64,000 nucleotides of DNA from a virus (Duplodnaviria > Heunggongvirae > Uroviricota > Caudoviricetes): positions 1 to 64,000 of IMG/VR virus record IMGVR_UViG_3300012347_000366. One strand, written 5' to 3'. Shown one piece after another: positions 2,741 through 41,285 of the stretch (within the stretch, counting starts at the first letter, position 1; every line of letters begins with the position of its first letter). The notes beneath the pieces are model-generated. The model worked only from the letters and a program-made list of their open reading frames with translations, searched no databases and was not told the origin of the DNA. A program made the translations under genes and the position numbers.

Positions 2741-2747
2741 CCAATTT

Positions 2748-2945: not shown

Positions 2946-2973
2946 ATATACTTCTTTAGGGGATTTCTGCATT

Positions 2974-3324: not shown

Positions 3325-3332
3325 GGAATTAT

Positions 3333-5147: not shown

Positions 5148-5214
5148 TAGCTCAGTTGGTTAGAGCAGCCGACTCATAATCGGTTGGTCGCGGGTTCAAG
5201 TCCTGCTCGGCGCA
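5141..5214 (+). tRNA. tRNA-Met (anticodon CAU); could be an Ile2-type if modified
   Basis: Acceptor GCGCTGA/TCGGCGC, anticodon stem CCGA/TCGG with loop CTCATAA, T-arm GCGGG-TTCAAGT-CCTGC, then A and CCA. Overlaps the stop of the upstream CDS. Confidence 0.8.
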
Positions 5215-5225
5215 CCACTTTTACA

Positions 5226-26514: not shown

Positions 26515-28482
26515 ATGAACACACCATCAACACGAGCGCAGGTAATTACACGTCGTACATATAATCGCCCAACTTCAGACGACGGAAAACAATTTGAAAC
26601 ATGGCAAGAAACGGTAGCTCGCGTTATCGATCACCAAGAGTGGTTGTGGGAACGAGCAGCAGGGCGCGAACTCAATGACCAAGAGTATGCAGAGCTTTAT
26701 GATCTTGAACAGCTAATGCTAGATCGCAAAGTATTGATGAGTGGTCGTACGCTTTGGCTTGGTGGAACTAATGTTGCTAAAACTCGTGAAGCATCGCAAT
26801 TTAATTGCAGCTTTACACACGTTGAAACAATCTATGACGTAGTTGATGTACTATGGTTGTTGTTACAAGGTTGTGGTGTTGGGTTCAAGCCAATTGTTGG
26901 AACACTAAACGGATTCTCAAAGCCAATTAAAAATATTCGAGTAGTGCGTAGTACTCGTACTGAAAAAGGTGGTAATGAACATAATACCGAAACGTTTGAT
27001 GCTGACACCAAGACTTGGACAATCACAGTTGGAGACAGCGCAGAGGCTTGGGCAAAGTCTATTGGTAAGCTGCTTGCGGGTAAGTATCCTGCTGATACTC
27101 TTGTGCTTGACTTTAGTCAGCTGCGACCTGCTGGTGAAAGGCTAAAAGGTTATGGATGGATTTCTAGTGGCGATGCGGCTATTAGCACTGCTTATATTGC
27201 TATTGCCAATATTCTTAATGGCCGTGCAGACAGCTTACTTACCCGTATGGATATTTTGGATATCGTTAACCACTTGGGTACTATTCTTAGCTCTCGCAGA
27301 AGTGCTGAAATTGCGCTGTTTGATTATGACCAACCTGAATGGCAGGAGTTTGCAGTAGCCAAGAAAGACTGGTGGTTGCACAACAATGCACATCGCACAC
27401 AGTCTAACAATAGCTTGGTATTTAAAAAGAAGCCACTAAAATCTGACTTAGAGCGTATCTTTGGCATGATGATTGAAGCAGGTGGATCAGAGCCGGGCTT
27501 TATCAATGAAGTTGAAGCACTACGTCGCGCTCCATGGTTCAAAGGCGCAAACCCTTGTGTTGAGATTTTGCTAGGCAACAAAGCGTTCTGTAACTTAACA
27601 GAAACTGATATTGCTAAGTTCAAGGGCGACACAGCGGGTTTACACGCAGCGATTAGACTTGCAGCCCGTGCAAACTATCGTCAAACCTGCGTTAACCTGC
27701 AGGACGGAATTCTTCAAGAGTCTTGGCATCTTAACAATTACTTCTTGCGTCTTTGCGGAGTTGGCTTAACAGGTATTGCAATGCGTCCAGACATGGGTAG
27801 CTATGATTACGAATACTTGAAGCGTACTGCTACTGGTGCTGCTATTGGTATGGCTCAAGAACTTGGCTTACCAGCACCTAAAAACGTTACTTGTATCAAG
27901 CCATCAGGCACCTTGTCAAAGATCATGGATACCACAGAAGGTGTTCACAAACCACTAGGAAAGTACATTTTCAACAATGTTCAATTTAGTAAGCATGACC
28001 CGGTGGTTGAGAAACTACGTGAAGCGGGTTACCGTGTTATTAATCATCCTGTTGATGATTCTGGAGTGCTTGTTACGTTTCCGGTGATGTGGGATGGAGT
28101 TCCATTCGACAAAGTAGCTGGAAAAGAAGTTAATCTTGAGTCAGCAATTGTACAACTTGAGCGTTACAAGCTGCTACAAACATCTTGGAACCAGCAAAAC
28201 ACGTCGGTAACTATCAGTTACGATCCAAGCGAAGTTCCTGGAATCATTGAGTGGTTGTTAGACAATTGGGATTGCTATGTTGGTGTGAGTTTCATCTACC
28301 GCACAGACCCAACTAAAACTGCCAAAGACCTTGGTTACTTGTACTTGCCACAAGAAGTTACTACAGAAGAAGCTTACATGGAATATGTAAAAACTTTAAC
28401 TACAGTTGATCTTAACAACACAAACAGCTTTGATGAAATCACTGATGCTGAATGTGCCACAGGCGCTTGCCCGATTAAATAA
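26515..28482 (+). CDS. ribonucleotide reductase, single-chain catalytic subunit, probably class II (B12-dependent) type
   Basis: Active-site loop GANPCVEIL (N-x-C-x-E), C-terminal Cys pair (CATGAC). No glycyl-radical RVxGY motif and no adjacent small-subunit gene. Confidence 0.6.
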   Translation: MNTPSTRAQVITRRTYNRPTSDDGKQFETWQETVARVIDHQEWLWERAAGRELNDQEYAELYDLEQLMLDRKVLMSGRTLWLGGTNVAKTREASQFNCSFTHVETIYDVVDVLWLLLQGCGVGFKPIVGTLNGFSKPIKNIRVVRSTRTEKGGNEHNTETFDADTKTWTITVGDSAEAWAKSIGKLLAGKYPADTLVLDFSQLRPAGERLKGYGWISSGDAAISTAYIAIANILNGRADSLLTRMDILDIVNHLGTILSSRRSAEIALFDYDQPEWQEFAVAKKDWWLHNNAHRTQSNNSLVFKKKPLKSDLERIFGMMIEAGGSEPGFINEVEALRRAPWFKGANPCVEILLGNKAFCNLTETDIAKFKGDTAGLHAAIRLAARANYRQTCVNLQDGILQESWHLNNYFLRLCGVGLTGIAMRPDMGSYDYEYLKRTATGAAIGMAQELGLPAPKNVTCIKPSGTLSKIMDTTEGVHKPLGKYIFNNVQFSKHDPVVEKLREAGYRVINHPVDDSGVLVTFPVMWDGVPFDKVAGKEVNLESAIVQLERYKLLQTSWNQQNTSVTISYDPSEVPGIIEWLLDNWDCYVGVSFIYRTDPTKTAKDLGYLYLPQEVTTEEAYMEYVKTLTTVDLNNTNSFDEITDAECATGACPIK

Positions 28483-28495
28483 ACCCAATTAAATT

Positions 28496-28678
28496 ATGAA
28501 CGACATTAAATTCACCTTATCTGATCTATCTATTGACGAAGTCAATGCTATTTTAGCAGCATTACAGGAATTGCCGGGTAAAATCTGCAATCCTATGACG
28601 CAAAAGATTCGACAACAAGCAGAAGCTCAAATTCCAAAGTCCGAGCCAACTATGCAAGACTTGGCTACACCAGCCTAA
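28496..28678 (+). CDS. hypothetical small protein
   Basis: ORF track. Confidence 0.35.
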   Translation: MNDIKFTLSDLSIDEVNAILAALQELPGKICNPMTQKIRQQAEAQIPKSEPTMQDLATPA

Positions 28679-28691
28679 GGTTTAGCCAAAC

Positions 28692-28727
28692 AAAAAGCCC
28701 CGTATATTGCTATACGGGGCTTTTTCT
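28692..28727. terminator. bidirectional rho-independent terminator between the convergent early (+) and late (-) transcription units
   Basis: AGCCCCGTATA-TTGC-TATACGGGGCT flanked by an A-run upstream and a T-run downstream. Confidence 0.7.
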
Positions 28728-29120
28728 TTATCCGTCCGAAGACTCCAGTAAGTTAGCTGCAAATACCAAGTCTTTGGCATCCGTTCGCTCACGCATGATT
28801 TGATCGCGCTTTTGAGTGCTCCAGGTGTAACCACCATCGCCACCCCACAAGTCCCATGCCACGCGTCCTTTGCTTGGAAAACCTTCTTCACCACTGTTAA
28901 ATCCAGTGGCTTTTTTGTCTACTTCATGACGAGAGAAGAAGCTATACATTCGTAGTACGGTTGTTCCAGTTAGTGGATCACGATCTTTTAGTTGATTAGC
29001 ACGAGCTAGCCCAACTAGTGTACCTCCTGGCTTACCTTCGTCTTTCCACTTTAGGGCACGTTTGGCTGCTGTAGCCATGCCTTCTGTAGGTGTATATGTT
29101 TCTGCCATATTATTCCTCAT
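28728..29120 (-). CDS. hypothetical protein
   Basis: ORF track. Confidence 0.45.
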   Translation of the reverse strand: MRNNMAETYTPTEGMATAAKRALKWKDEGKPGGTLVGLARANQLKDRDPLTGTTVLRMYSFFSRHEVDKKATGFNSGEEGFPSKGRVAWDLWGGDGGYTWSTQKRDQIMRERTDAKDLVFAANLLESSDG

Positions 29121-29604
29121 CTTTCGTGGGAGTTACAAAAGATACATTTGCATTATCTGGATCCATTGTAGGGTCTTCCCAATCATCACAAGTGCGTAGT
29201 GCACTGCAAGTAATTGACCAAAGAGTACATACTGCACTAGGCATACCTGCAATATCTGCCCATTTGGGAGTTACTGGCAGTTCGCTGGCCTTTAGTTGGG
29301 CACCGGGTGATGCTGGTAGTGCGCTCATGATTTCTGGACTATTATCATAGTGAGCGCAATTCATACAAAGTCGAGTGCGTGCTACACCTTCTGGTACGTT
29401 CCACAAACTCATTTTATCACCCCAATAGAGTACGCTGGGTTGACGTGGGTCAGCAGGACCAAGATTGGCACGTTCAATGCACACCAAATGGTTTGCTAAA
29501 TTTAAGTCTTTGTAGCGTAGTGCTACTGGTAGTGTATCTGCCATATTAATTCCTATAAGCCATAATAATCTGCTTACACATTTTACTACGTACAATATCT
29601 TCAT
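29110..29604 (-). CDS. hypothetical protein
   Basis: ORF track. Confidence 0.45.
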   Translation of the reverse strand: MKILYVVKCVSRLLWLIGINMADTLPVALRYKDLNLANHLVCIERANLGPADPRQPSVLYWGDKMSLWNVPEGVARTRLCMNCAHYDNSPEIMSALPASPGAQLKASELPVTPKWADIAGMPSAVCTLWSITCSALRTCDDWEDPTMDPDNANVSFVTPTKDEE

Positions 29605-30304
29605 CTAGGAATTCGATAACCTCGATTCCGTCGATACCTTCTAGCCGATCTACGGCATCTTCTAATCCTGAATCTGGAATATCTGATTGCTCAGTGTCTC
29701 CTGAAAAGATCATTTTACAATTTTTACCAATACGCGATAAAAGCATTTTCATTTCTTCACGAGTACAGTTTTGTGCCTCGTCAACTAACACAATGCAATT
29801 ATCAAATGTTGTACCTCGCAAAAACCCTAGTGGAGTAGGGTCAATGTCTTTTGACTTCAAGCAATATTCGTAAAAACCTTTTCCAAGCGCTTTTGTAAAG
29901 ATTGAGTCAAAAGGCAGTAAGTACGGTGCGTATTTCTCTTCTAAAGTACCTGGTAGGAATCCTAATCCACGGCCAGTTTCAATATTAGGTCGTGTTAGGA
30001 TAACTTTATCTATTCGCTTGTGAAATAACTCCGATGCAGCATAACTAGCTGCAATAAATGTTTTACCAGTACCAGCAGAGCCTATACCAAATATAACGTC
30101 GTTGTTTTTAATAGCGTCTAGATATTCACCTTGAACGAAGTTTAGTGGCTGAACTTCTTTAAAGGTATAATTACGTTGAGGGACAGGTTCGCTTAGTCCA
30201 GCGTGTTTCTCACTGCGCAGCCTAGATTTTTCCTCTTGCGAAGGGCGATTACTAGACTTCTTTGCTGGAAAGGTGCGATGGTTTTTACCACTATTTCTTG
30301 CCAT
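29546..30304 (-). CDS. phoH: PhoH-like ATPase
   Basis: Walker A GSAGTGKTF, Walker B VLVDEAQN, PhoH C-terminal region. Confidence 0.8.
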   Translation of the reverse strand: MARNSGKNHRTFPAKKSSNRPSQEEKSRLRSEKHAGLSEPVPQRNYTFKEVQPLNFVQGEYLDAIKNNDVIFGIGSAGTGKTFIAASYAASELFHKRIDKVILTRPNIETGRGLGFLPGTLEEKYAPYLLPFDSIFTKALGKGFYEYCLKSKDIDPTPLGFLRGTTFDNCIVLVDEAQNCTREEMKMLLSRIGKNCKMIFSGDTEQSDIPDSGLEDAVDRLEGIDGIEVIEFLDEDIVRSKMCKQIIMAYRN

Positions 30305-30327
30305 GTACTTCCTTGTTGGGTTATAAA

Positions 30328-30359
30328 GTAGGGTGTAAGTGTAAATTATACCACCCTAC
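30328..30359 (-). terminator. hairpin GTAGGGTG...CACCCTAC overlapping the phoH promoter -10; possible terminator for the upstream small-gene run
   Basis: 8-bp stem with a 16-nt loop; T-rich on the minus strand after the stem. Confidence 0.3.
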
Positions 30360-30373
30360 AAAAAATATGTCAA
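30345..30373 (-). promoter_or_regulatory. perfect consensus sigma70 promoter TTGACA-17-TATAAT (minus strand) upstream of phoH
   Basis: Plus-strand TGTCAA at 30368-30373 and ATTATA at 30345-30350, 17-nt spacer. Confidence 0.55.
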
Positions 30374-30381
30374 ATAAAAAT

Positions 30382-30585
30382 TTACTTAGCCTTTTTGTCC
30401 GGTACTTTTGTACCTTCAAGCTTTTCGTGAATTTTTACTTGCTTACATACTTGCTTGGTCTTTTTGGTTTTAGCATCAGTTTGGTCAATACAAACCTTTT
30501 TAGTTTCAGCTGCAAATGCTGGATGATTGTAGCTAAGTACAAACATACCTAAAACTACTAATACTGAATAAAATAATCGTTTCAT
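30382..30585 (-). CDS. small secreted Lys-rich protein (signal peptide, 2 Cys)
   Basis: N-terminal hydrophobic signal ending AFAA. Confidence 0.45.
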   Translation of the reverse strand: MKRLFYSVLVVLGMFVLSYNHPAFAAETKKVCIDQTDAKTKKTKQVCKQVKIHEKLEGTKVPDKKAK

Positions 30586-31050
30586 TTAAATCTCCGGTTG
30601 TGGGGCTGGTTGTGGAGCAGGCTTTCCATTGACCATACGAATTTCAGCCTGCGCCGATGTACCATTGAATCCTGGGGTTGTAGAAAATCCCGGTGAGAAT
30701 GATGGTTCTTGCTTAACTACAGGCGGCACGTAGCTGGTTTTAGCAGCAGCTGCCGCGTTGTCTTGTGCTTGTTTCATTAGTGCAATTGATGCATCTACTT
30801 CTTCCTTACTTCCACCCGCCAACATAATTCCTGATAATGTACCAGTTAAAAATGTAGCAATTGGCACAATTAATTCAAAAAACTTTTGGTCGATTGGACT
30901 GATTGCGTTTAGTGGTTGTGTTACAAATATCAAGCTATACAAAACAACAAAAACAATTCCTGTTAGTGTAAGGGCTAAACATACACCAATAAAGAACTTA
31001 AGACGAGCCATTAACTGCTCGTCGGTATAGATAAAACTATTATTTGACAT
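30586..31050 (-). CDS. membrane protein with two TM helices and a Pro/Ala-rich C-terminus (PAPQPAPQPEI)
   Basis: Two hydrophobic helices. Confidence 0.45.
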   Translation of the reverse strand: MSNNSFIYTDEQLMARLKFFIGVCLALTLTGIVFVVLYSLIFVTQPLNAISPIDQKFFELIVPIATFLTGTLSGIMLAGGSKEEVDASIALMKQAQDNAAAAAKTSYVPPVVKQEPSFSPGFSTTPGFNGTSAQAEIRMVNGKPAPQPAPQPEI

Positions 31051-31321
31051 TAGGGCACCCTGGAGTAGATTGATTTAGTTGTTGTTTGGCTAGTACATTT
31101 TGAGGCTCTTCTGGAGCACCTAAACGCGGATCACGCTGGCCTTTGAAAACATGCTCTGGACAGGTACGTGTTACATCACATTGTGGTTTTTGGCACATAG
31201 GCTTATCCCAGTTTGTTGGGTCTTGACATGGATATCTAAAGCGGTCGCCACCAAAAACCGCTAATCCAATTGGTAGTAGTAGCAAAAACGCCAACCACTT
31301 TACCATTCTTAAATCGTTCAT
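31040..31321 (-). CDS. small secreted or membrane-anchored Cys-rich protein (6 Cys)
   Basis: N-terminal hydrophobic segment; Cys-rich mature part. Confidence 0.45.
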   Translation of the reverse strand: MNDLRMVKWLAFLLLLPIGLAVFGGDRFRYPCQDPTNWDKPMCQKPQCDVTRTCPEHVFKGQRDPRLGAPEEPQNVLAKQQLNQSTPGCPNVK

Positions 31322-31322
31322 A

Positions 31323-31877
31323 TTACTTTCCTGCTAGTGGATTATCTATTGCTTTTTGTATTTTTGAGTCTACCGAGCTGGCTAACTTCTCAATCTTGTT
31401 ATCTGTATCTCGCTTTAACTTATCCATATCATCACGAGTACGCTGTATTGATTGCTCAACATTCTTGGCAACAAGTTTTAAGTCTTGGTCTGTTTCACGC
31501 TGTGCTACTTTTACTGCACGCTCTACTTGCTCTACTACACTTTCATTACGACGAATATCTGTTTTTAAGTCGTTTTTTATGTCACGAGTATAGTCAGTGG
31601 TTTTAGTAGAGTTTTCTTCGATCACAGCCAAACGCTTATCAAAATCCGATAGATCAGGACTTACGTACTCTGCTATCTTTTTCTTCATGCCTTGATAGTC
31701 TTTGTATACTTCAAAGGCTCCGTATAAACCTCCCAGCAATGAGCTAGCAAGTGTAAACGCTACCATTAATTTAGCAGGAGTAAACTCGTAACCGCCGATA
31801 CTAATAACAGTATCCTTACTAGCATATTTTTTAGTAGCAGCTTCTAGTTCCTCTACTTTTTTGTCTAAGTTTGACAT
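31323..31877 (-). CDS. membrane-anchored coiled-coil protein (one TM near residue 40, long charged helical C-terminal region)
   Basis: Hydrophobic segment AKLMVAFTLASSLLGGLYGAF then a heptad-rich, charged sequence. Confidence 0.45.
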   Translation of the reverse strand: MSNLDKKVEELEAATKKYASKDTVISIGGYEFTPAKLMVAFTLASSLLGGLYGAFEVYKDYQGMKKKIAEYVSPDLSDFDKRLAVIEENSTKTTDYTRDIKNDLKTDIRRNESVVEQVERAVKVAQRETDQDLKLVAKNVEQSIQRTRDDMDKLKRDTDNKIEKLASSVDSKIQKAIDNPLAGK

Positions 31878-31885
31878 AAGTCTCC

Positions 31886-32302
31886 TTACTTAGGTGTATT
31901 CTCAAAACGCAAGCTTTTGAGATTATTTAGTTCCCGTTCCAGACGTTGAACTTCAATACGCTTTTTCCGTAGCTCAAGCTGGTAGAGTTCATTGCAATCT
32001 AGGCGCTCTCGTGGTGCACCTATTGGTATAGTAATCCTGCCGTATACTCCAATATCTCTGGCTTGATTAACTGGACTAGTACTAACAGTATTTGGATTAC
32101 TGTTTATAACGCCCACAACACCAAACTCTACATTAGTGCTGGAACCTATTGCCATTGAACAGTCAAGACCATCTGCACGGAAGCTATCACTTTGATAACT
32201 ACCTGAGCTACCTGGTAGCGACAAATTTAATGAGTTGGCCTGTGCGTGTGCTAAACCTGTGGCAAACAGCAGTAAAATACCACAATATATTAATCTAATC
32301 AT
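31886..32302 (-). CDS. secreted protein (signal peptide ending GLAHA) with a C-terminal coiled coil
   Basis: Signal-peptide-like N-terminus. Confidence 0.45.
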   Translation of the reverse strand: MIRLIYCGILLLFATGLAHAQANSLNLSLPGSSGSYQSDSFRADGLDCSMAIGSSTNVEFGVVGVINSNPNTVSTSPVNQARDIGVYGRITIPIGAPRERLDCNELYQLELRKKRIEVQRLERELNNLKSLRFENTPK

Positions 32303-32691
32303 TATTTAACTTTAGAACATATTTTTGAGGAAATTACTGTATCTTTTACATCTTCACGTCTAAGACGTGATTCGGTGCAAATGTACACTACTTTTTTGAG
32401 ATCAGAGCTTTTAACATATACGCTTATCTTTTTGGTTTCCAAGTACTTTATGTGTATGATCTTACTTTCAGCTGCAAAACTTATTGGTTCCCAGTTTTCA
32501 GTAAATACTCCTAGTTCGTAGTACTCAACCTCTGAGCGTTTATTAAACAGTTCCATTTTTGTTTGAACAACACCGTCAACAAACGATTGCTCAAACTGAG
32601 GGTAGGTTGGTGTAAACTGATGTGAGTGTGCTAAACCACACACCCACATCAATCCAGCTATAATTATAGCACGCATAGTATTACAGGGCAA
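32302..32691 (-). CDS. secreted protein (signal peptide)
   Basis: Signal-peptide-like N-terminus MRAIIIAGLMWVCGLAHS. Confidence 0.45.
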   Translation of the reverse strand: MPCNTMRAIIIAGLMWVCGLAHSHQFTPTYPQFEQSFVDGVVQTKMELFNKRSEVEYYELGVFTENWEPISFAAESKIIHIKYLETKKISVYVKSSDLKKVVYICTESRLRREDVKDTVISSKICSKVK

Positions 32692-33172
32692 TACACTCGG
32701 CTAAAACAACTGCCTTATACTCACCTGCTGGAAACGACTTATTATAGCCGTACTGTGCTTTGGAAGTAGCACTGAACCATACTGTGCCAGGCACACTTAG
32801 GTCAATTTCAGTTGTGTTGTTGTACACTCGCTTGGTATTTGTATACGCAGACATACCTGCATCAGTAACCTTGCTGACCGCCACACTACCTACCCAAGTA
32901 ACTGAATCCGTTAGTGCTGGGCTAGAAGTAAATGCACTTGGTACTGTGATTAGTGCTTTGTAGAAACCTGCTTCTACAACATCGTATCTGATAACAGGAG
33001 TAACACCACCATCAGTACGCTCGGTACTTAGCATACCAGGGCCTGGGTTACCATATACTCCGGGTGTGTCGGTGTTAATAACACACTTAGATGAAACCAT
33101 GCCACGAATAGGCACTTCTGCGGCTTGTGCACTAAAGCACAGTGCCAGGGTTAGTAATAAAGATTTAATCAT
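32681..33172 (-). CDS. secreted beta-rich protein (signal peptide ending AQAA; Cys near each end), pilin or adhesin-like size
   Basis: Signal peptide; composition resembles small Ig-fold subunits. Inference only. Confidence 0.45.
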   Translation of the reverse strand: MIKSLLLTLALCFSAQAAEVPIRGMVSSKCVINTDTPGVYGNPGPGMLSTERTDGGVTPVIRYDVVEAGFYKALITVPSAFTSSPALTDSVTWVGSVAVSKVTDAGMSAYTNTKRVYNNTTEIDLSVPGTVWFSATSKAQYGYNKSFPAGEYKAVVLAECIAL

Positions 33173-34001
33173 TTTTTATTCCTTGATTATATTGTTGGTT
33201 AATCATCCTTGTGTGCAACAGCTCTTGACTATAATTAAGTCTTAAGCTATTCTTGGAATCTGGCAGTCGTTTATCTACTAGCTTTACGCTGTCGGAATAA
33301 ACTCCTCCAAATAATGCTCGGCTATAAGAAACCGGTAGTGTATTAGCTGACTCTAGCGCACGGGAAACTGTTAAGTCGGCTAACGAATTTGTTGCAGACT
33401 TTTTTAAAAGCTGTGGCTTTTTTAGTTGTTCAGACTCAAATAGCTGCTTAAAGGTTGCTTGTGTATCTTCAGTTTCTGAGACCAGTTTAGTTTCTGGCAA
33501 CTCTGTTTGTAAATTAGCCTGAATATTAGGCAAGGAGACTTTGTAGTTTGGGCAGCTTGGGTCAGTGGTAGTACTATCAAAACAAGTGTCATACCTATAA
33601 CTATAAAATACCTGTGGGTCTTGTATACTGCCTATGCCCGCAGTTGAAATCCTACCAGGACCCCACAAGTTAACAGGTATATTGTCTACTGCAACAGTTC
33701 GTGTTAGAGTATTCCCAGGTCTACCTGTCCAATCATCTTGTGATCTAAACACATAGCCTGTGTTTGTGGTGTTGGCATTTTCAACTGTTACTAGTAGTGG
33801 ATCTGGCGCAAGTTTTACAGCAGTATAGCGATAGCTAACAGCATTAACCGTTAGTCCTGTGTACTGTGGTAGTACTTGCGTCATTGCCCAAGTTAATCCT
33901 TGATCTGCAGCATTTTTTGTTTGAGCATTAAATGTTTCAGAGTAAGAGTAAGAGCAGCAAAGCAAGCAAACCACCAGCACCAAATAGTGTTTTAGTCTCA
34001 T
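33165..34001 (-). CDS. secreted protein (start taken at Met MRLKHYLVLVVCLL, which gives a signal peptide; ORF track 33165..34094)
   Basis: AAGGA Shine-Dalgarno 7 nt upstream of the ATG at 34001. Two Cys in the mature part. Confidence 0.45.
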   Translation of the reverse strand: MRLKHYLVLVVCLLCCSYSYSETFNAQTKNAADQGLTWAMTQVLPQYTGLTVNAVSYRYTAVKLAPDPLLVTVENANTTNTGYVFRSQDDWTGRPGNTLTRTVAVDNIPVNLWGPGRISTAGIGSIQDPQVFYSYRYDTCFDSTTTDPSCPNYKVSLPNIQANLQTELPETKLVSETEDTQATFKQLFESEQLKKPQLLKKSATNSLADLTVSRALESANTLPVSYSRALFGGVYSDSVKLVDKRLPDSKNSLRLNYSQELLHTRMINQQYNQGIKND

Positions 34002-34461
34002 TGCTTGTTCCTTGAGTGTTTTGTTTAATACCAGGCTGTTGTGCTTCATTGGCTTTCCAAGCTGCACGAGCCTCAGAACCAATAGCTCCGTCATAAGGAC
34101 AAGGAGTACCAGCCATCATCATTGCATCAAACACACGTCGATCTTGACAAAGTGTTGAAACTGCTGCTACCTTCATGCCCATGTCATAAAGCGTTTTTGA
34201 TAGCTTTAAGCGTTCGCAGTTAAGGTCAATTACAGTAGCTCCAGCACTAATACCCAAGATTTGGGTTTGTACAGCACCAGCTACACCCACAGTACACAAA
34301 TCAGTATTAGCTGTGTTTATGGTAGGGCTTATAGCACTGGCTGGAGGCGATTTAACAGTACTGTCACTACGACTGGTCACAGTACTGTTTGTGTTTACAT
34401 CTTGTGCATGTACTGTACCTGTGACTAGTAGTGAAACCGCTAAGATAAGTTGCTTTAGCAA
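33937..34461 (-). CDS. secreted Ser/Thr-rich protein (signal peptide ending VHA). Its 3' end overlaps the next gene by ~64 nt, out of frame
   Basis: Signal peptide; four Cys. Confidence 0.45.
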   Translation of the reverse strand: MLKQLILAVSLLVTGTVHAQDVNTNSTVTSRSDSTVKSPPASAISPTINTANTDLCTVGVAGAVQTQILGISAGATVIDLNCERLKLSKTLYDMGMKVAAVSTLCQDRRVFDAMMMAGTPCPYDGAIGSEARAAWKANEAQQPGIKQNTQGTSNETKTLFGAGGLLALLLLLLL

Positions 34462-34462
34462 G

Positions 34463-35086
34463 TTATGCTCCTAGTACGTGTAACGCATGGTTGTAGTGCT
34501 TGATTCGATCATCAAGGCCAATAGTACCGCCATTGATACGCTTGGTTAGTGTTAAGATATCACCACGATCAGCCCACTGATTTAGGTTGTTTGTTTCCCA
34601 GAACCAGCAAGCACTTTGAGCAGCACCTTCAAAGGTTTCCAAGTATTCAGCGGCCTCTTCAACAGTAATATTTAAACTAGCTGCAAACCACGAATAGTTG
34701 TCTTTTCCAGTTAGCTGAATCAATCCACGACCGCAATAACGGTAACCATCACCAGTTTCAGGACCGCCATTGCCCATACGATTGGCATATACTAAGTTGG
34801 CAATTGCTTGCTGTTTGTTGGGCATACTTGCATACTCTTGTGCCATTGCATCCGTGGTAAAATACTTGGGAAAGATTTTACGAAGGGTAACAGCTTTGTA
34901 GTTTAAGTTTTCCTTTAGCGCAGTAAACCCACCTGACTCATGTGCGCACTGTGCAACAAAGGCAGCAATACGCTGAGCTGTATTGATTTCGTATTCCGGA
35001 AGCAGCTGCGCTAGAGCATTATGCCACTGCTTGACATACGGATTCTTTGGAAGTAGTTGTTGCAGTTGTTGCAGAGATAATTCCAT
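34463..35086 (-). CDS. endolysin, glycoside hydrolase family 19-like (lysozyme/chitinase fold)
   Basis: GH19 signature blocks AQCAHESGGF and GRGLIQLTG. Confidence 0.7.
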   Translation of the reverse strand: MELSLQQLQQLLPKNPYVKQWHNALAQLLPEYEINTAQRIAAFVAQCAHESGGFTALKENLNYKAVTLRKIFPKYFTTDAMAQEYASMPNKQQAIANLVYANRMGNGGPETGDGYRYCGRGLIQLTGKDNYSWFAASLNITVEEAAEYLETFEGAAQSACWFWETNNLNQWADRGDILTLTKRINGGTIGLDDRIKHYNHALHVLGA

Positions 35087-35352
35087 TATTTCAAGCTTTC
35101 ATAAAGGGTTTTTTGTTCACTATACCAACGCTGCCAGGCTTCCAATTTGGCAGCACATATGTAGTATTCGGTATAGTTGGTGGTTACGGTTTTGGCCACT
35201 TGGCTCAGTTTAGGGTCTTGTTCTAGCTGCTTTAAGTCTACACAACGCTCTTGCACTAATGTACCTGGAGCTGGTGGAAACTTTGCAGTTACTGGCACAA
35301 CTGTTGAGCAAGCCGTTAAACCTAAGGCTAATAATAGTGCTAGTAGTTTCAT
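35086..35352 (-). CDS. o-spanin-like outer-membrane lipoprotein
   Basis: Lipobox LTAC-S after a signal peptide, small size, extra Cys residues. Overlaps the upstream gene by 4 nt and abuts the endolysin. Confidence 0.6.
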   Translation of the reverse strand: MKLLALLLALGLTACSTVVPVTAKFPPAPGTLVQERCVDLKQLEQDPKLSQVAKTVTTNYTEYYICAAKLEAWQRWYSEQKTLYESLK

Positions 35353-35768
35353 TTTGGTGCCTCTGCTGCACGATTGTGTGCTTGAACAAACTCTGGAGAA
35401 ATCACACAGGTTCCGTCACTTTTGACAACTTCGCGGTCTATGTATTGGACCACATCTTGCCCACGAGTTTTAACCACTTGCACTTTTGTGACTACTCGTT
35501 CTTTTATTTCGGTGTTTACAACCTGTGATTGTTGTTCTAGTGCGGTGACTTTGGCCTGCAGCTCTTGTGCGGCAGATTTCCAGGCATTATCACAATAAAG
35601 CATACCCAAAATAAAAATTGTTGCGGCTATGGTTGTATAAGCCAAACTTTTGATAATTAACGCATACGTTTTTAATTGAGGCAAACTGCTCAAGAAAACA
35701 GCGATTATTGCGCTGCCCAACAGCAACAACCAAAACCAGTCTGGAATAATTTTAAAAATAAAAAACAT
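35349..35768 (-). CDS. i-spanin-like inner-membrane protein (N-terminal hydrophobic region with two segments, then a coiled coil). A holin role is not excluded
   Basis: Hydrophobic N-terminus followed by LQAKVTALEQQSQVVNTEIKER coiled coil; positioned 5' of the lipoprotein. Confidence 0.5.
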   Translation of the reverse strand: MFFIFKIIPDWFWLLLLGSAIIAVFLSSLPQLKTYALIIKSLAYTTIAATIFILGMLYCDNAWKSAAQELQAKVTALEQQSQVVNTEIKERVVTKVQVVKTRGQDVVQYIDREVVKSDGTCVISPEFVQAHNRAAEAPK

Positions 35769-35783
35769 TTTTGATTCCTTGAC

Positions 35784-35808
35784 TAAAAGCGGCGTATTGC
35801 CGCCTTTA
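35784..35808 (-). terminator. weak terminator-like hairpin (GCGGC/GCCGC) with T-run on the minus strand
   Basis: Read from sequence. Confidence 0.3.
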
Positions 35809-35813
35809 GTGGT

Positions 35814-36167
35814 TTAAGGTGCTGGAGCTTCTGCGGCAGGTTCCACAGGTGCCCAAGGCATTGCAACAGGCGCTAGCTGTGCCTTGGCCACTTCACGATC
35901 AAGCACACTTTGAATATGTGCCTGAATACTTGGGATGCGCGTATCATGTGCTTCAACCCACGCAATAACCTGCGCTTCAGTTAAGTTTTGAAGTGGAATA
36001 AATCCCTCCGATTGAGGGTCGGGCACTACAGTGCTTTGGGGTAGTTCAAACACTTGACCGGCTTCGGTGCCGATTAGTGTCCAATCTACTTGCTTAACTG
36101 CATTTTCAATGCCGTTAACAGTTTGGGTACGAAGACCTGTGATTTTGATTGTAAAAGTTGCGGACAT
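35814..36167 (-). CDS. hypothetical protein
   Basis: ORF track. Confidence 0.45.
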   Translation of the reverse strand: MSATFTIKITGLRTQTVNGIENAVKQVDWTLIGTEAGQVFELPQSTVVPDPQSEGFIPLQNLTEAQVIAWVEAHDTRIPSIQAHIQSVLDREVAKAQLAPVAMPWAPVEPAAEAPAP

Positions 36168-36185
36168 TAATGTCTCCGGGTTAGG

Positions 36186-36428
36186 TTAAGTGGTAATAGC
36201 TGGCATTACAGCTTTGAGTTCTGATACCGAGTTTGCTGAATCAATTGCAGCCTGCATACTAGCGTACTTGTCGCGTACTGCTTGTCGTGCAGCTTCAGCA
36301 TTTAGTGCACTAGTACCAGGTATCTGTTTAGCAATAATCTCATCGTACGGCTTGAATTCTTCGGCACGAGCAGCTCGCCTTATTTCATGTGCAATGTCTT
36401 TTGCTTTATTGATATTTATGAGGATCAC
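36186..36428 (-). CDS. hypothetical protein
   Basis: ORF track. Confidence 0.4.
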   Translation of the reverse strand: MILININKAKDIAHEIRRAARAEEFKPYDEIIAKQIPGTSALNAEAARQAVRDKYASMQAAIDSANSVSELKAVMPAITT

Positions 36429-36679
36429 TGATTTATCTCCGGAAATTCACTAGACGCTGCACCGAAGCCATCAGTTAGTATAGCCTGGTCAATTTCCCAG
36501 GCCGATCGAAAGGTTCGGTCGCTGGGAATACTGTCTACGTCTACTATTTTGAATGGCTTGCCTGCCGGCACATCTTTAAGCGCAATGGCTTCAATACCAT
36601 ATTGATTAAGGACTTCCGGCGCTGGAATGATTATAGCTACTCCCCCTTCATCTGTTTGATATATGATTCGTTTGGTCAT
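36425..36679 (-). CDS. hypothetical protein
   Basis: ORF track; 4-nt overlap with the next gene. Confidence 0.4.
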   Translation of the reverse strand: MTKRIIYQTDEGGVAIIIPAPEVLNQYGIEAIALKDVPAGKPFKIVDVDSIPSDRTFRSAWEIDQAILTDGFGAASSEFPEINQ

Positions 36680-36688
36680 AAATGTACC

Positions 36689-39600
36689 TTATCTAAAAAT
36701 TGCTGCATGAATTAAGCTAATGTCGGCTAAAGCGCCTGCGTTTACGCCCGCTGCAAAGCTGCGTGTAAGAATGCCTACCCCGGCAGTGGTCTGGGCACCA
36801 AACTGCGATTCCCGCGACGTAACCGAGGTGCCTTCGTTGGCCACAGACAGCGCGACGTAGTTAGTGTCCGGCATGGCTGTTGTGAAGTTCACGGTATACG
36901 TTCCAACGCCACCATCTGTGATACTGGACACGTTACCAGAAGCTCGGATTGCTACGGTGCCAGTGCCATTGAAGTTTACCCAGGCTCGCGCAGCAAAAAT
37001 CGGGCGACCATTATAAATAAACTCATTTGTACCAACACTAAAGATCGTATTAGCACTTGTAGTATTATCTATTACCTCAAATACTTGGCTTGCATTAGTT
37101 CCGCCAAGCCTTACACTTAATGTACCTGTAGCCCTATTTTGGTTACAACCTAATAGGGCAGTGCCTGTATTTGCATTAAAAAGAAGAAAGTTGCTAACGC
37201 TGAACCCAATTTGACCAGATACCGTGCCTCCAACAATAGGTAGGGAGTAGCTGCTGGCATTACCGGCGTGTAAAACAATATTTCCACTAGGGCCGCGAAG
37301 CGAACTTGCATTGCCCCCATACTGTAAGTACAAATCTTTGATAGTAGCGGTATTGGAGAAGTACTCCAGGTTATTAGGAGAGGTGACTTTCAGGTAATTT
37401 CCAGCAGTATCAACAATTCTGTCAGTGTAGTAAGTGCTGTAATTACCCGCATGAAGTACGTTGTTACCCTTGTATGTAAATGCATTTGTACCTGCAACAA
37501 GAATCCTGACTGAGTTCCACTGCCAATCAGCGATTTCAAAGTACGAGTTGGTGTTACCACCACCAAGCTGCACGGTCATAATGCCTGCGGCCAGATTCGA
37601 CGCACGTCCGATCTTCGCCTCGCCACTGTTTGTGGGGAGGTTGAATAGCGAGCCCAGACTGATGGCCCCTGTCATGGAACCGCCGCTTGTAGGCAAGTAG
37701 CCACTCAGTGAAGCGCTGGTGACATAACCGCTATCGTTGGTGAACGACGACACGGCTGTAGGCCTGCCGCTCACGTTCGTCCATGCCACCGAGCCTGCGC
37801 TACCAGTGACGGAGATTCCCCATGTGCCAGATGCGCCGGTGCCTGTTAGAGAGGGGCTGTAGCTGGTGTAGTTCTGGTTAGTCAGAACCTTGTTCCACGT
37901 TGTCCAGGCCGCACCATCCCAGCCGCCACGGAAGATCAGATCGTTACCGTTGTGGCTGATATAGACTTGCGAGCGGCTAGAGCTTGAACCGGTGCTGAGG
38001 TTAAGTAATGTGCCGTACTGGTATGAGGCGGCGGTCGGACCGTTTGTGGTGCTTGTAAAGTTTGTGGGCGTTACTTGGATCAAGCTGTTCTGATAGCTGT
38101 TCCCCAGGTCATTCCAGTCGATGCTGGTTGATGCAGCACCCAACGCTCGGATGATGCCGTTGTAGCTGGTGTAGTTGCCTGCGTGCAGAAGCGTACGGTG
38201 AGTCGTTCCGTCGTAGAACGACCCGCCGCCATAGACGTAGGTGCCACTTGTTCCTTTGATGTAAGTGCCGAGACCAGCTGTGGCGTTGTACCCGACCGTG
38301 TCCGACTGACCACCCAAATTGATGACTGACCCAGAGTTGAGACTCAGGTTGCCACTCAACGTACCTCCACTCAAAGGCAGTGCGTAGCTGTTGTAGTTGC
38401 CAGCAGTCAAAACTTGGCTGCCGTTCTGGGTAATTGCACCAGCCGTGTTCAGAGCGCCGACAGCACTCAATGTCATCGTTGAAGTAAACGAGATGGCAGC
38501 GCCTGCTGTGCCGGATGCTGCTGCTCTCCAGACATGACTTCCAGCTCCTTGGTAATACTGACTTGCAGTACCAGTGGCAATGTATCTGTCAGTTCCGTCA
38601 TATCGGAAGTTTTGAGACAGTAATACATAAGACGCGCTACCAGCCAAAGAAGATTGAGCACCTAACTGGAAAGCACTATAAGTTGTCCATGTGTCGGGAG
38701 TACGTCCCAAGGCGAGGTTGCCAAATGGATCTAGCCGCATTTTTTCAGTAAGCGAAGTGCCGTTATGCGTTGAGAACGCCATAAAGCTGGCATTGCCAGA
38801 AGCTCCCGCTTGTGCAAAATCAATCCCACCAATGTTGGTTGCGGCTTGACCGCCAGCAGTAGAGGCAGCAACGATATATCCAGCAGACTGGCCAGCACCA
38901 GCAGGACGACCGCGCATTTCAAGGCGACCGTAGCTGCTGCTGTTAACAGCACCTTCTGCCATAATGGTAGTTGCACCGCTTGTACCATACGCGTGAACCT
39001 TGCCAGCAGTAGAGGCAGTACCAACACCCAGATTTGTTCCATTGAACGTTAGAGCACTACCAGAGGTCAGTACTTTGGAGCCATTGAGGTAGGTAACTCC
39101 GTTGGCTGTTCCACCTGAAAGCGTTACATCACCAGTTAATGTACCTCCACTTATTGGTAGTGCATAACTATTATAGTTGAGGGCATGTAGTACTACTTGC
39201 CCAGCAATGCTCATATCCGTATTGGCGTTAAAACTAGCGGCAGTAAAAACACCATAGCTCGATAGTTCTGCTACTGCCGACGGCTGGCCGATAGAAGTTC
39301 CGGTTTCCCATACCCACCCGTTGTAGCCCATACCGTCGTCATCAATAAATGAGTGAAGTGCGGCACCATAAACATTCCAACCGGAGGCTGATGTGATATT
39401 CCCACTTGGACCGCAGCCGGTTTGGCCACCATAGTCTGCGTAGTATTCAGTCCATGTCTTAGATGTGCTACTATACCAGTTTATTCCAGAAGCTAAAGTA
39501 TTAGCAGAAGGAATACGGAGACTAGAAACCGTTAACGGTCCTTGTAGGGTACCGCCGGTTAGTGGAAAATACTGGTGTGTATGAATAGCAGCAGCAGCAT

Positions 39601-41095: not shown

Positions 41096-41113
41096 TTAAT
41101 ATTCCTATTTTTG

Positions 41114-41284
41114 TTATTCAAGGGAATAAGCCGTCTCTGGATTATTAACGCTTGGATCAATTAGTGGGTCTAGTGCAATCTTTAAACGCTTGATTGCACT
41201 TGCAGATAAGTTTTGTTTGATTAGCTCAAAGGTACCCCAAAGAGCTATATCATTACTTTGTATAGTCAGTGCTAATAGTGCCAT
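41114..41284 (-). CDS. possible 56-aa ORF filling the 190-nt gap between fibre genes
   Basis: ATG directly after the upstream stop (TAATATG); below the ORF-track cutoff. Confidence 0.25.
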   Translation of the reverse strand: MALLALTIQSNDIALWGTFELIKQNLSASAIKRLKIALDPLIDPSVNNPETAYSLE

Positions 41285-41285
41285 A

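What the first reader, a model, noticed from the sequence alone, without database searches (positions are those of the whole stretch)
30382..34461. Nine consecutive small envelope-targeted genes between phoH and the lysis cassette
All nine adjacent minus-strand ORFs encode a Sec-type signal peptide or N-terminal TM helices. They are 67, 154, 93, 184, 138, 129, 163, ~279 and 174 aa long. Several carry paired Cys, two have C-terminal coiled coils, and most overlap their neighbours by 1-10 nt (one pair by ~64 nt), which suggests translational coupling. None has a motif I can assign. As a unit it has no counterpart in the canonical T5 map as I remember it, where only the single llp lipoprotein is envelope-targeted. 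Possible roles are superinfection exclusion or receptor masking, a periplasmic assembly system, or lysis timing control.
Basis: partly seen in the sequence, partly recalled or inferred. Interest (0 to 1): 0.75.

Follow-up and report, generated by a model that had tools for sequence, protein, structure and literature searches.

The report
Mobile secreted-protein cassette beside phage lysis genes
Nine back-to-back phage genes all send their products into the bacterial envelope; six form a widespread, uncharacterised mobile cassette, probably acting at cell lysis or virus release, and three look like leftover lysis genes.

Summary
Nine tightly packed minus-strand genes (30382-34461) all carry a cleavable Sec signal or membrane anchor. 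This is rare elsewhere in the window.

The block is not one unit.
- g3-g2-g1 sit directly after the endolysin in a relative (L090). They look like lysis-cassette genes, with g2 the likely holin.
- g9-g8-g7-g6-g5-g4 is a separate mobile cassette. In 52 of 52 g9-anchored viral contigs with enough sequence, g4 follows g9. Forty-one contigs have the same six-gene order; the rest have g9-g8-g4 or g9-?-g4.
- The core g9/g8/g4 occurs in SAR11 and Roseobacter phages. The trio g7/g6/g5 occurs in cultured Vibrio phages, including T5-like Ceto.

None of the nine matches Pfam or NCBIfam. Profile searches of g4, g5, g7 and g9 found no related solved structure. Models of g7 and g8 give generic beta-sandwich and jelly-roll folds with no enzyme fold.

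The cassette usually lies beside or inside lysis clusters built on at least four endolysin types. In T4-like contigs it stands alone.

Best guess, confidence about 0.4: an inner-membrane-anchored periplasmic complex acting at lysis or egress. Superinfection exclusion or receptor masking is a serious rival. Function is unproven.

The parts
33937..34461 (-). g9, 174 aa. It has a Sec signal (cleavage about VHA/QD), an S/T/N-rich stalk, a conserved 4-Cys domain (SPPxSAIxP...QTQILG...NCERLK...MGMKVAAVS..CQD..VF.AM..GTPCP) and a C-terminal hydrophobic tail LLALLLLLLL. It is the first gene of the cassette core.
   Evidence: The family has at least 7,998 clusters at 90% identity and 1,567 at 50%, with no Pfam match and no source name. 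Homologues occur in Pelagibacter, Roseobacter, Ralstonia and Achromobacter phages.
33165..34001 (-). g8, 278 aa from MRLKHY. It has a Sec signal (conserved CSYSYS/E), an N-terminal jelly-roll domain, a disordered charged linker and a conserved C-terminal helix (..LPDS....SQE.LH..M...QY). It is the fastest-evolving member. Its start overlaps the g9 tail by 65 nt.
32681..33172 (-). g7, 163 aa. A secreted beta-sandwich with an unstructured mature N-terminus (EVPIRGMVSSKC) and two invariant Cys (C30, C160). It is the first gene of the inserted trio.
32302..32676 (-). g6, 124 aa from the ATG at 32676 (129 aa if the TTG at 32691 is used). A small secreted beta-rich protein whose mature N-terminus is HQFTPTYP, with 2 conserved Cys.
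   Evidence: It matches phrog_25455, the family of Ceto gp146.
31886..32302 (-). g5, 138 aa. A secreted protein with a disulfide-bracketed beta region (LDC...RLDC), a C-terminal heptad helix and a conserved FEN end. In one lineage (L014) the signal looks lipoprotein-like.
   Evidence: Alignment. It matches phrog_37374. Homologues occur in 184 Vibrio phage records.
31323..31877 (-). g4, 184 aa. A type II inner-membrane anchor (TM 37-55), a periplasmic coiled-coil-like domain of about 125 aa, and an invariant C-terminal NP(L/M) motif (..AIDNPLAGK). It is the last gene of the cassette core.
   Evidence: Alignment. It follows g9 in 52 of 52 loci with enough downstream sequence. Only weak coiled-coil-type PDB matches were found. 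It is not related to the window's i-spanin (hhalign probability 0.5%).
31040..31321 (-). g3, 93 aa. An N-terminal membrane anchor plus a Cys-rich periplasmic domain (GDRFRYPCQDP.NWD..C..P.CD.TRTCP). A lysis-cassette partner of g2.
   Evidence: g3 and g2 lie directly after the GH19 endolysin in L090. They follow the g4-like gene in MW202675 and occur as a pair in DSL-LC01.
30586..31050 (-). g2, 154 aa. It has two hydrophobic spans and a long C-terminal tail, and is the most conserved gene of the block (median 88%). It is the best holin candidate for the cytoplasmic GH19 endolysin.
   Evidence: It matches phrog_25359 at 2.5e-17. No annotated holin family matched the other small or membrane-type ORFs tested in the window.
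30382..30585 (-). g1, 67 aa. A Sec signal followed by a 42-aa mature peptide with 13 Lys, net charge about +7 and 2 Cys. It is the last gene before the phoH promoter.
   Evidence: It is found only in the T5-like relatives and in L090, where it ends the lysis cassette.
34463..35086 (-). GH19-type endolysin with no signal sequence.
   Evidence: Matches phrog_181 at 9.7e-74, and weakly Pfam Glyco_hydro_19.
35086..35352 (-). o-spanin candidate, 88 aa, lipobox LTAC.
   Evidence: Matches Rz-like spanin PHROGs at 2.5e-5 and 2.5e-4. Sequence.
35349..35768 (-). i-spanin candidate, 139 aa.
   Evidence: Matches phrog_8821 (Rz-like spanin) at 1.5e-4 and phrog_4952 at 3.3e-10.
30345..30373 (-). A perfect sigma-70-type promoter (TTGACA, 17 nt, TATAAT, with an extended -10 TG) between g1 and phoH. 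It marks the downstream end of the late block.
   Evidence: It is the only 12/12 match in 28400-41400.

Best explanation
The nine genes are a composite at the distal end of the late operon. The order is tail fibre, spanins, endolysin, then the block.

(1) g3-g2-g1 are the remainder of the lysis cassette. g2 is the probable two-span holin for the signal-less GH19 endolysin. g3 is a membrane-anchored, Cys-rich partner. g1 is a secreted polycationic peptide.

(2) g9-g8-g7-g6-g5-g4 is a self-contained mobile cassette.
- Its universal core is g9 (periplasmic 4-Cys domain tethered to the inner membrane by a C-terminal tail), g8 (secreted jelly-roll domain, flexible linker, C-terminal helix) and g4 (inner-membrane anchor, long coiled coil, invariant C-terminal NPL peptide).
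- A secreted trio, g7-g6-g5 (two beta-sandwich proteins and a disulfide-bonded beta-plus-helix protein), has been inserted between g8 and g4.

Proposed mechanism: the products assemble into an inner-membrane-anchored complex that reaches across the periplasm. It contains no enzyme and works by binding. It acts late, at the lysis or egress step, either helping or timing disruption of the outer layers of the envelope.

Shown: secretion and anchor signals, synteny, mobility, conservation, position, and absence of catalytic folds in the two modelled members, g7 and g8.

Inferred: complex formation, late timing, and any role in lysis.
For: Composite nature:
- L090 has g9-g8-g4, then a 172-aa gene, i-spanin, o-spanin, GH19 endolysin, g3, g2, a 72-aa TM protein and g1.
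- Only close T5-like relatives keep g3-g1 next to g4.

Cassette integrity:
- In 52 of 52 g9-anchored IMG/VR loci with at least 3.6 kb downstream, g4 follows g9. Forty-one show g9-g8-g7-g6-g5-g4, eight show g9-g8-g4 and three show g9-?-g4.
- The overlap between the g9 tail and the g8 signal peptide is conserved, which points to coupled translation.

Link to lysis:
- The cassette lies beside or inside lysis clusters built on different endolysins: GH19 (window; MW202675; L090), T4-lysozyme-like phrog_7 (L035 type), phrog_315 (L014) and M15 (Ceto, trio only).
- An endolysin lies within 6 kb in 17 of 52 loci, detected with only six seed sequences. In 13 loci it lies 0.4-1.2 kb after g4.
- Spanin-like pairs or small lipoproteins precede g9 in the window, L014/L016, CRP-810 and MW202675.
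- Nine GH24-endolysin loci show no lipobox ORF within 6 kb on either side, which leaves room for an outer-membrane role.

Other points:
- g4 has i-spanin-like topology.
- There is no internal promoter or terminator in the window block, and phoH has its own perfect promoter.
- The g9 domain is 51% identical between this T5-like phage and a SAR11 podovirus. That suggests a conserved envelope target rather than a strain-specific receptor.

Precedents for extra lysis factors: Lcc6 (bioRxiv 10.1101/2024.01.23.576932), LysZ (bioRxiv 10.1101/2025.06.24.661397) and the phiKT disruptin (bioRxiv 10.1101/515445).
Against: - No member is homologous to any known lysis protein. g4 against the window's i-spanin gives hhalign probability 0.5%, and PHROG hits are all to families of unknown function.
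- The window phage already has a spanin pair, an endolysin and a holin candidate, so the cassette is not needed for a canonical lysis set.
- In T4-like contigs (L011, L033) the cassette is an isolated operon among replication genes and a tRNA gene, away from any detected lysis gene.
- In two unrelated Vibrio phages the trio travels with a large, possibly fibre-like gene. In one of them (vB_VhaS-tm) it lies between capsid and head-tail adaptor genes, not near lysis genes.
- Ends of late operons next to lysis and tail-fibre genes are also the usual landing sites for accessory 'moron' genes, so position alone does not decide the matter.
- No lipoprotein or outer-membrane beta-barrel was identified in the cassette that would anchor it to the outer membrane.
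- Timing is inferred from operon position only.
Confidence: 0.4

Rival explanations
1. Superinfection exclusion or receptor masking. The secreted proteins bind envelope components from the periplasmic side, as T5 Llp does with FhuA. This would block later infections, or stop released progeny from being wasted on cell debris. g9 and g4 would be a conserved scaffold, and the fast-evolving g8 (with g7) would be the specificity parts.
For: - In Vibrio phages Ceto and vB_VhaS-tm the only shared stretch is a large non-secreted, possibly fibre-like gene (phrog_10818), the g7/g6/g5 trio and a small lipoprotein. This pattern resembles a receptor-binding protein gene moving together with its cognate blocker.
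- The cassette often follows tail-fibre genes.
- In T4-like contigs it is a stand-alone, moron-like operon.
- g8 is the most variable member, with 49% median identity against 87% for the endolysin.
- The modelled folds are binding-type beta-sandwiches with no catalytic fold.
Against: - The g9 and g4 families are conserved across phages of alpha-, beta- and gamma-proteobacterial hosts. That is unexpected for receptor-specific blockers.
- In the window the block has no promoter of its own and sits at the end of the late operon, which is too late for classical exclusion.
- Six proteins is far more than any known exclusion system uses.
- The window cassette contains no lipoprotein.
- The cassette lies between spanin and holin-endolysin genes in several lineages.
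Confidence: 0.28
2. A fimbria-like or surface-layer polymer. g7 would be a pilin-like subunit that polymerises by donating its N-terminal strand. g6 would be a small chaperone-like partner. g5 and g8 would be outer-membrane or tip parts. g9 and g4 would be the inner-membrane base.
For: - The mature N-terminus of g7 (EVPIRGMVSSKCVI) shows the alternating hydrophobic-Gly pattern followed by a Cys that, from my own recall and not tested here, type 1 pilin N-termini show.
- That N-terminus is unstructured in the model (pLDDT 64-70 for residues 11-30), ahead of a confident beta-sandwich.
- g6 is a small secreted beta-rich protein encoded next to g7.
Against: - There is no usher-sized or secretin-like protein and no ATPase.
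- Pfam fimbrial, chaperone and usher models do not match.
- The g7 model has a complete C-terminal strand.
- The core g9-g8-g4 works without the trio in many phages.
Confidence: 0.08
3. Unrelated small accessory genes that merely accumulate at a permissive site. There would be no joint function and no complex.
For: - The block is demonstrably composite.
- Parts occur separately: g9 alone in several pelagiphages, the g3-g2 pair alone in DSL-LC01, and the trio alone in Vibrio phages.
Against: - Gene order is strictly conserved, and g9 and g4 co-occur in 52 of 52 loci across phage lineages with unrelated flanks.
- The g9/g8 dual-coding overlap is conserved.
- Start-stop junctions are tight.
- g4, g5 and g8 each have an invariant C-terminal peptide motif of the kind used for partner binding.
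Confidence: 0.07

Closest known systems
Two-component spanins (lambda Rz/Rz1 type) and the unimolecular spanin (T1 gp11)
   Same: - g4 has the i-spanin layout: an N-terminal inner-membrane anchor, a periplasmic coiled coil and a conserved C-terminal partner-binding end.
- g9 has a C-terminal membrane anchor, as the unimolecular spanin does.
- The cassette sits in or beside lysis clusters.
- Disulfide-capable Cys are conserved.
   Different: - There is no outer-membrane lipoprotein partner and no sequence relation (hhalign probability 0.5%).
- It has three to six components instead of one or two.
- The window phage carries a separate canonical spanin pair.
T5 Llp lipoprotein with receptor-binding protein pb5 (receptor masking)
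   Same: - It is an envelope-targeted product of a T5-like phage.
- In Vibrio phages the trio, together with a small lipoprotein, moves with a large, possibly fibre-like gene. This is how llp stays next to the pb5 gene.
   Different: - Llp is a single small lipoprotein. From my own knowledge it is made early.
- Here there are six non-lipoproteins at the end of a late operon.
- The families span phages of many host classes.
Chaperone-usher pili
   Same: - g7 is a secreted beta-sandwich of about 145 residues, with a pilin-like N-terminal extension and a Cys in the first strand.
- It is encoded next to a small secreted beta-rich protein (g6).
   Different: - There is no usher and no two-domain PapD-like chaperone.
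- No Pfam match was found.
- Structural similarity is only generic.
Holin with antiholin or other accessory lysis membrane proteins (T4 T/RI; LambdaSo Lcc6; corynephage LysZ)
   Same: - g2 (two hydrophobic spans) and g3 (anchor plus periplasmic domain) lie directly beside the endolysin in a relative.
- The window's endolysin has no export signal and so needs a holin.
   Different: - No holin family model matches g2.
- The C-terminal tail of g2 is long and not basic.
- No functional test has been done.
phiKT gp28 'disruptin' (cationic peptide that breaks the outer membrane)
   Same: The mature g1 peptide is short (42 aa), strongly cationic (about +7) and encoded at the end of a lysis cassette.
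   Different: - g1 has a cleavable signal peptide, two Cys and few hydrophobic residues, so an amphipathic LL-37-like helix is doubtful.
- Homology was not tested.

Membership tests
Two-component spanin (i-spanin/o-spanin) | The i-spanin has an N-terminal transmembrane anchor and a periplasmic coiled coil. | tested here: met
   g4 has a TM at 37-55 and a helical, heptad-like periplasmic part. It gives weak coiled-coil-type matches only.
Two-component spanin (i-spanin/o-spanin) | The o-spanin is a small outer-membrane lipoprotein with a lipobox Cys. | tested here: not met
   None of g5-g9 has a lipobox in the window. Only the g5 homologue of L014 has a possible one. The window's true lipoprotein is the separate 88-aa ORF at 35086-35352.
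Two-component spanin (i-spanin/o-spanin) | Sequence relation to known spanin families. | tested here: not met
   No spanin PHROG matches g4 or g5. Profile-profile comparison of g4 with the window's i-spanin gives probability 0.5%.
Unimolecular spanin (T1 gp11 type) | An N-terminal lipoprotein signal and a C-terminal transmembrane domain in one chain. | tested here: not met
   g9 has the C-terminal hydrophobic tail, but its N-terminal signal is signal-peptidase-I type (VHA/QD) with no lipobox Cys.
Chaperone-usher pilus system | An outer-membrane usher of about 800 aa. | tested here: not met
   No such ORF lies in or beside the cassette in the window or in about 130 related loci. The large Vibrio phage neighbours have no signal peptide and no Pfam match.
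Chaperone-usher pilus system | A two-domain PapD-like periplasmic chaperone. | tested here: not met
   g6 is a single domain of about 105 residues with no Pfam match at E<=1.
Chaperone-usher pilus system | A pilin with an incomplete Ig fold completed by a donated N-terminal strand. | tested here: inconclusive
Llp/Cor-type receptor-masking lipoprotein | A single small outer-membrane lipoprotein encoded next to the receptor-binding protein gene. | tested here: not met
   The window cassette contains no lipoprotein, and it is separated from the tail-fibre gene by lysis genes. A lipoprotein (Ceto gp148) does accompany the trio in Vibrio phages.
Holin (for g2) | A small membrane protein with at least one TM, encoded beside the endolysin, where the endolysin lacks an export signal. 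| tested here: met
   g2 has two hydrophobic spans. The GH19 endolysin has no signal sequence. g3 and g2 directly follow the endolysin in L090 and precede it in MW202675.
Holin (for g2) | Match to a described holin family, or demonstrated lethal hole formation. | tested here: not met
   g2 matches only phrog_25359, of unknown function, and no Pfam or NCBIfam holin model. Function cannot be tested with these tools.
Disruptin (phiKT gp28) (for g1) | A short cationic amphipathic peptide that disrupts the outer membrane and complements spanin mutants. | not tested
   Only charge and length were compared (42 aa, 13 Lys). The description of gp28 is from bioRxiv 10.1101/515445. No sequence comparison or assay was done.

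The most novel reading that the evidence does not exclude
The g9-g8-g4 core, with or without the g7-g6-g5 trio, is a new class of multi-protein, non-enzymatic, non-lipoprotein machine that spans the envelope. Aquatic phages, including phages of SAR11 and Roseobacter, would use it to complete or time envelope disruption. It would then be the functional equivalent of, or a controller for, spanins in the many phages where no spanin can be found.
Probability: 0.25. Interest if true: 0.85.

Novelty: categorically new. Interest (0 to 1): 0.68.

Why it matters
- The g9 family alone has at least 1,500 clusters at 50% identity, and at least 594 loci in IMG/VR. It occurs in phages of some of the most abundant marine bacteria. 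Yet no member of the cassette has a name, a Pfam family or a structural relative.
- About 15% of phages of Gram-negative hosts have no recognisable spanin (bioRxiv 10.1101/515445).
- A conserved, envelope-resident cassette lodged in lysis clusters is a concrete candidate for the missing step, or for a new kind of lysis control or progeny protection.
- Culturable carriers exist: HTVC115P, CRP-207, CRP-810 and Ceto-like Vibrio phages. The question is therefore directly testable.
- Even if the function proves to be exclusion, a six-protein periplasmic exclusion system would be unprecedented.
- The 'categorically new' rating rests on the absence of any detectable relation to known systems, not on a demonstrated new function. 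The g3-g2-g1 part is more likely a set of new members of a known kind (lysis cassette).

Tried and rejected
- Near-identity DNA search of the block against 50,697 phage records found no match.
- Pfam, NCBIfam and PHROGs on all nine proteins gave no functional family.
- Pfam on partner proteins in pelagiphages, roseophages and Vibrio phages gave nothing. The deposited labels 'OmpA family protein', 'lysozyme' and 'TonB' are therefore unsupported.
- PDB profile searches for g7, g9 and g5 gave nothing. For g4 they gave only coiled-coil composition hits (ApoA-IV, influenza HA2), which I do not take as homology.
- The curli idea, prompted by similar protein sizes, was dropped because no Csg Pfam model matched.
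- The chaperone-usher idea was kept only as a weak rival.
- Domain-fusion search: ten long members of the g9 family showed only low-complexity N/T/S stalks or K/E-rich tails, with no informative fused domain.
- Bacterial genome scan for g7 found only four small MAG contigs, so there are no prophage or cellular copies and no host clue.
- Structure search against afdb50 was unavailable. BFVD gave nothing significant.
- Similarity between the Vibrio phage large proteins and any window protein: none.
- Literature searches for HTVC115P, spanins in pelagiphages, Ceto and vB_VhaS-tm found no description of these genes.

Full report
**What the window is.** The major tail protein (60342-61478, minus strand) is about 34% identical to those of T5-like Vibrio, Serratia and Klebsiella phages. 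There is a tRNA cluster at 338-5217. PhoH is at most 43% identical to any cultured phage PhoH. The 4-kb block has no near-identity DNA match among 50,697 phage records. The window therefore comes from an uncultured, distant T5-like siphovirus. On the minus strand the order is:
- a tail-fibre-like gene (36689-41095);
- three small ORFs;
- i-spanin (35349-35768), o-spanin lipoprotein (35086-35352) and a GH19 endolysin (34463-35086);
- the nine genes g9 to g1;
- a perfect TTGACA-17-TATAAT promoter (30373-30345);
- phoH.

No other strong promoter or terminator lies in the block. It is therefore most simply read as the tail end of the late transcript. This is an inference.

**The observation.** All nine ORFs are present.
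- A rule-based check finds cleavable Sec-type signals in g9, g8, g7, g6, g5 and g1, signal anchors in g4 and g3, and two hydrophobic spans in g2. g9 also has a C-terminal hydrophobic tail.
- These features are kept in 14-32 homologues of each family.
- Elsewhere in the window, N-terminal hydrophobic segments are rare.
- Junctions are tight, ranging from an 11-nt overlap to an 8-nt gap, apart from a 65-nt g9/g8 overlap.
- In that overlap the same DNA encodes g9's poly-Leu tail in one frame and g8's signal peptide in another. Both readings are conserved in relatives.
- Minor corrections: g8 is 278 aa, and g6 most likely starts at the ATG at 32676 (124 aa).

**The block is composite.** I compared the window's proteins with 47 related viral contigs by tblastn.
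- g9-g8-g7-g6-g5-g4 is colinear in all of them, including contigs whose flanks are unrelated.
- g3, g2 and g1 accompany the cassette only in close T5-like relatives.

A second sample of 80 loci was anchored on g9 alone, out of at least 594 in IMG/VR. I searched it with profiles built here.
- Of 52 loci with at least 3.6 kb downstream of g9, all 52 have g4.
- Forty-one have the six-gene order, eight have g9-g8-g4, and three have g9, an undetected gene, then g4.
- The unit is therefore a three-gene core (g9, g8, g4) with an optional trio (g7, g6, g5) inserted between g8 and g4.

Locus L090 settles the status of the other three genes. Its order is g9, a long g8, g4, a 172-aa gene, i-spanin, o-spanin, GH19 endolysin, g3, g2, a 72-aa membrane protein and g1. 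So g3-g2-g1 belong with the endolysin. In the window lineage the six-gene cassette sits between the endolysin and g3.

**Where the parts occur in cultured phages.**
- Core: Pelagibacter phage HTVC115P has gp54 (g9, 51% identity), gp53 (weak g8 match, same C-terminal motif) and gp49 (g4, 44%).
- Core: Roseobacter phages CRP-810 and CRP-207 and two spring-water phages (MW202481, MW202675) have g9-like and g4-like genes separated by a secreted protein in the g8 position.
- MW202675 reads, in order: i-spanin-like, lipoprotein, g9-like, secreted 256-aa protein, g4-like, g3-like, g2-like, secreted nuclease, GH19 endolysin.
- The deposited names 'OmpA family protein', 'lysozyme' and 'TonB' for these genes have no Pfam support.
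- Trio: g7 has no tblastn match in cultured phages. Profiles do find g7-, g6- and g5-like genes in Vibrio phage Ceto (Demerecviridae) and vB_VhaS-tm (Queuovirinae).
- Those two genomes share only one stretch: a large phrog_10818 protein, the trio and a small lipoprotein.
- In Ceto this stretch lies just upstream of the T5-type holin and M15 endolysin. In vB_VhaS-tm it lies between capsid and head-tail adaptor genes.

**What the proteins are.**
- None of the nine matches Pfam or NCBIfam. The PHROG matches are all to families of unknown function.
- PDB profile searches for g9 and g5 are empty. g4 gives only coiled-coil-type matches.
- The g9 family is very large: at least 7,998 clusters at 90% identity and 1,567 at 50%. 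Its longer members add only N/T/S-rich stalks or K/E-rich helical tails.
- g4 ends in an invariant NP(L/M) motif, g5 in FEN, and g8 in LH..M...QY. Such conserved ends are typical of partner-binding peptides. This is an inference.
- Among 19 close relatives, median identity is 87% for the endolysin, 88% for g2, 78% for g9, 72-73% for g7, g5 and g4, 59% for g6, and only 49% for g8.

**Position relative to lysis genes.** The cassette is next to, or inside, lysis clusters that use different endolysins:
- GH19 in the window, L090 and MW202675;
- a T4-lysozyme-like enzyme in the L035 type;
- phrog_315 in L014;
- M15 in Ceto (trio only).

With only six endolysin seed sequences, an endolysin was detected within 6 kb in 17 of 52 loci. 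In 13 loci it lay 0.4-1.2 kb after g4, with small membrane proteins in between. Spanin-like pairs or small lipoproteins precede g9 in several lineages. Nine GH24-endolysin loci have no lipobox ORF within 6 kb on either side. My lipobox pattern is strict, and it missed one real o-spanin.

Against a strict link to lysis: in T4-like contigs (L011, L033) the six genes form an isolated operon between replication genes and a tRNA-Leu gene.

**How it most likely works.**
- I read g2 as the holin. It has two spans, sits beside the endolysin in L090 and MW202675, and the endolysin has no signal sequence. No holin family matched the other small or membrane-type ORFs I tested in the window.
- g3 may be its membrane-anchored partner.
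- g1 is a secreted polycationic peptide, possibly acting on the outer membrane as the phiKT disruptin does (bioRxiv 10.1101/515445). This last point is speculation.
- For the cassette, I propose an inner-membrane-anchored, non-enzymatic complex reaching across the periplasm. g9 (C-terminal tail) and g4 (N-terminal anchor, coiled coil) would hold it in the inner membrane. g8, and where present g7, g6 and g5, would be the distal, binding parts. It would act at the lysis or egress stage.
- Only the anatomy, synteny and positions are shown. The complex, the timing and the role are inferred. Confidence is about 0.4.

**The main rival.** The main rival is exclusion or receptor masking, at about 0.28.
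- For it: the trio moves together with a large, possibly fibre-like gene in Vibrio phages; the cassette stands alone in T4-like genomes; g8 evolves fast.
- Against it: g9 and g4 are deeply conserved across phages of different host classes; the cassette sits late in the operon; it has six components.

A fimbria-like polymer (0.08) and a chance collection of accessory genes (0.07) are less likely. The reasons are given under the rival explanations.

**Comparison with known systems and novelty.** The cassette fails the defining tests for all of these:
- spanins: no lipoprotein and no homology;
- the unimolecular spanin: no lipobox;
- chaperone-usher pili: no usher and no PapD-like chaperone;
- Llp-type blockers: no lipoprotein.

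It resembles spanins only in the topology of g4. I found no description of these genes in the searchable literature. Recent papers do show that lysis cassettes can hide extra, unrelated factors: Lcc6 (bioRxiv 10.1101/2024.01.23.576932) and LysZ (bioRxiv 10.1101/2025.06.24.661397).

On present evidence the cassette belongs to no known kind of system. That judgement rests on the absence of any detectable relation, not on a demonstrated new function. The g3-g2-g1 part is more ordinary.

**Verdict.** The 'single unit' reading is corrected to a composite. The function is open but testable in cultured phages. Interest is 0.68.

Noticed in passing
window 33937-34001 (minus strand): A dual-coding overlap. 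The same 65 nt encode g9's C-terminal poly-Leu tail in one frame and g8's signal peptide (..LLCCSYSYS) in another. Both readings are conserved across relatives, and a g9/g8' overlap persists even in roseophage-type versions.
   Followed up: partly
window 30345-30373 (minus strand): A perfect sigma-70 consensus promoter (TTGACA, 17 nt, TATAAT, with an extended -10 TG) lies directly upstream of phoH. It is the only 12/12 match in 13 kb. It suggests that phoH and the genes after it are transcribed by unmodified host polymerase, separately from the late block.
   Followed up: partly
window 338-5217 (plus strand): A cluster of seven tRNA genes: Cys, Tyr, Gly twice, Val, Met and one of unclear identity. 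ARAGORN also calls a permuted tmRNA-like element at 640-1089 with tag ANDTQFALVA, which may be a false positive.
   Followed up: no
window 8351-9163 and 9172-9555 (plus strand): On the opposite strand, which probably carries early genes, a 270-aa ORF matches phrog_200 ('lipoprotein', 1.3e-35). It is followed by a 127-aa protein with two hydrophobic spans (phrog_3878, unknown function). This is a second, separate pair of envelope-directed genes.
   Followed up: no
window 45973-46314 (minus strand): A 113-aa ORF with an N-terminal hydrophobic segment lies inside the tail gene module. It gives weak matches to 'hol-like' and Rz-like spanin PHROGs (E 5e-4 to 2e-3).
   Followed up: no
L052 (Roseobacter phage CRP-810) 5001-6809; L053 (CRP-207) 1834-3873; L002 8347-9453: The deposited product names 'OmpA family protein', 'lysozyme', 'putative lysozyme' and 'transport protein tonB' fall on g9-like, g4-like and g8-position genes. 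These have no Pfam support for those names and are probably mis-annotated.
   Followed up: yes
L057 (MW202675.1) 3443-3850: A thermonuclease-like protein with a signal peptide is encoded between the g2-like gene and the GH19 endolysin. It appears to be a secreted nuclease inside a lysis cluster.
   Followed up: no
L033 2012-5512 (minus strand): The family B DNA polymerase of this T4-like contig is split into two ORFs (429 and 450 aa). A 177-aa HNH-like ORF and a 100-aa ORF lie between them. In L011 the same polymerase is a single 844-aa ORF.
   Followed up: no
L055 (Vibrio phage Ceto) 6549-7273: The g6-like and g5-like genes of Ceto appear to be mis-called in the deposited annotation. gp146 starts too late, and the g5-like ORF is split between gp146 and gp147.
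   Followed up: partly
window 31323-31877 (g4), profile A7: The g4 family profile gives repeated weak matches (E about 1e-3) to the long helical hairpin region of influenza haemagglutinin HA2 (residues 35-131), and a better one to apolipoprotein A-IV (6e-6). These are most likely coiled-coil composition effects. They are curious nonetheless, given that spanins are membrane-fusion devices.
   Followed up: no
L088 8810-9328 and L090 6075-6593: In the three-gene form of the cassette, a conserved 172-aa protein with no obvious signal sequence (MDP(I/V)TLL...) directly follows g4. It may be a further, lineage-specific member.
   Followed up: no
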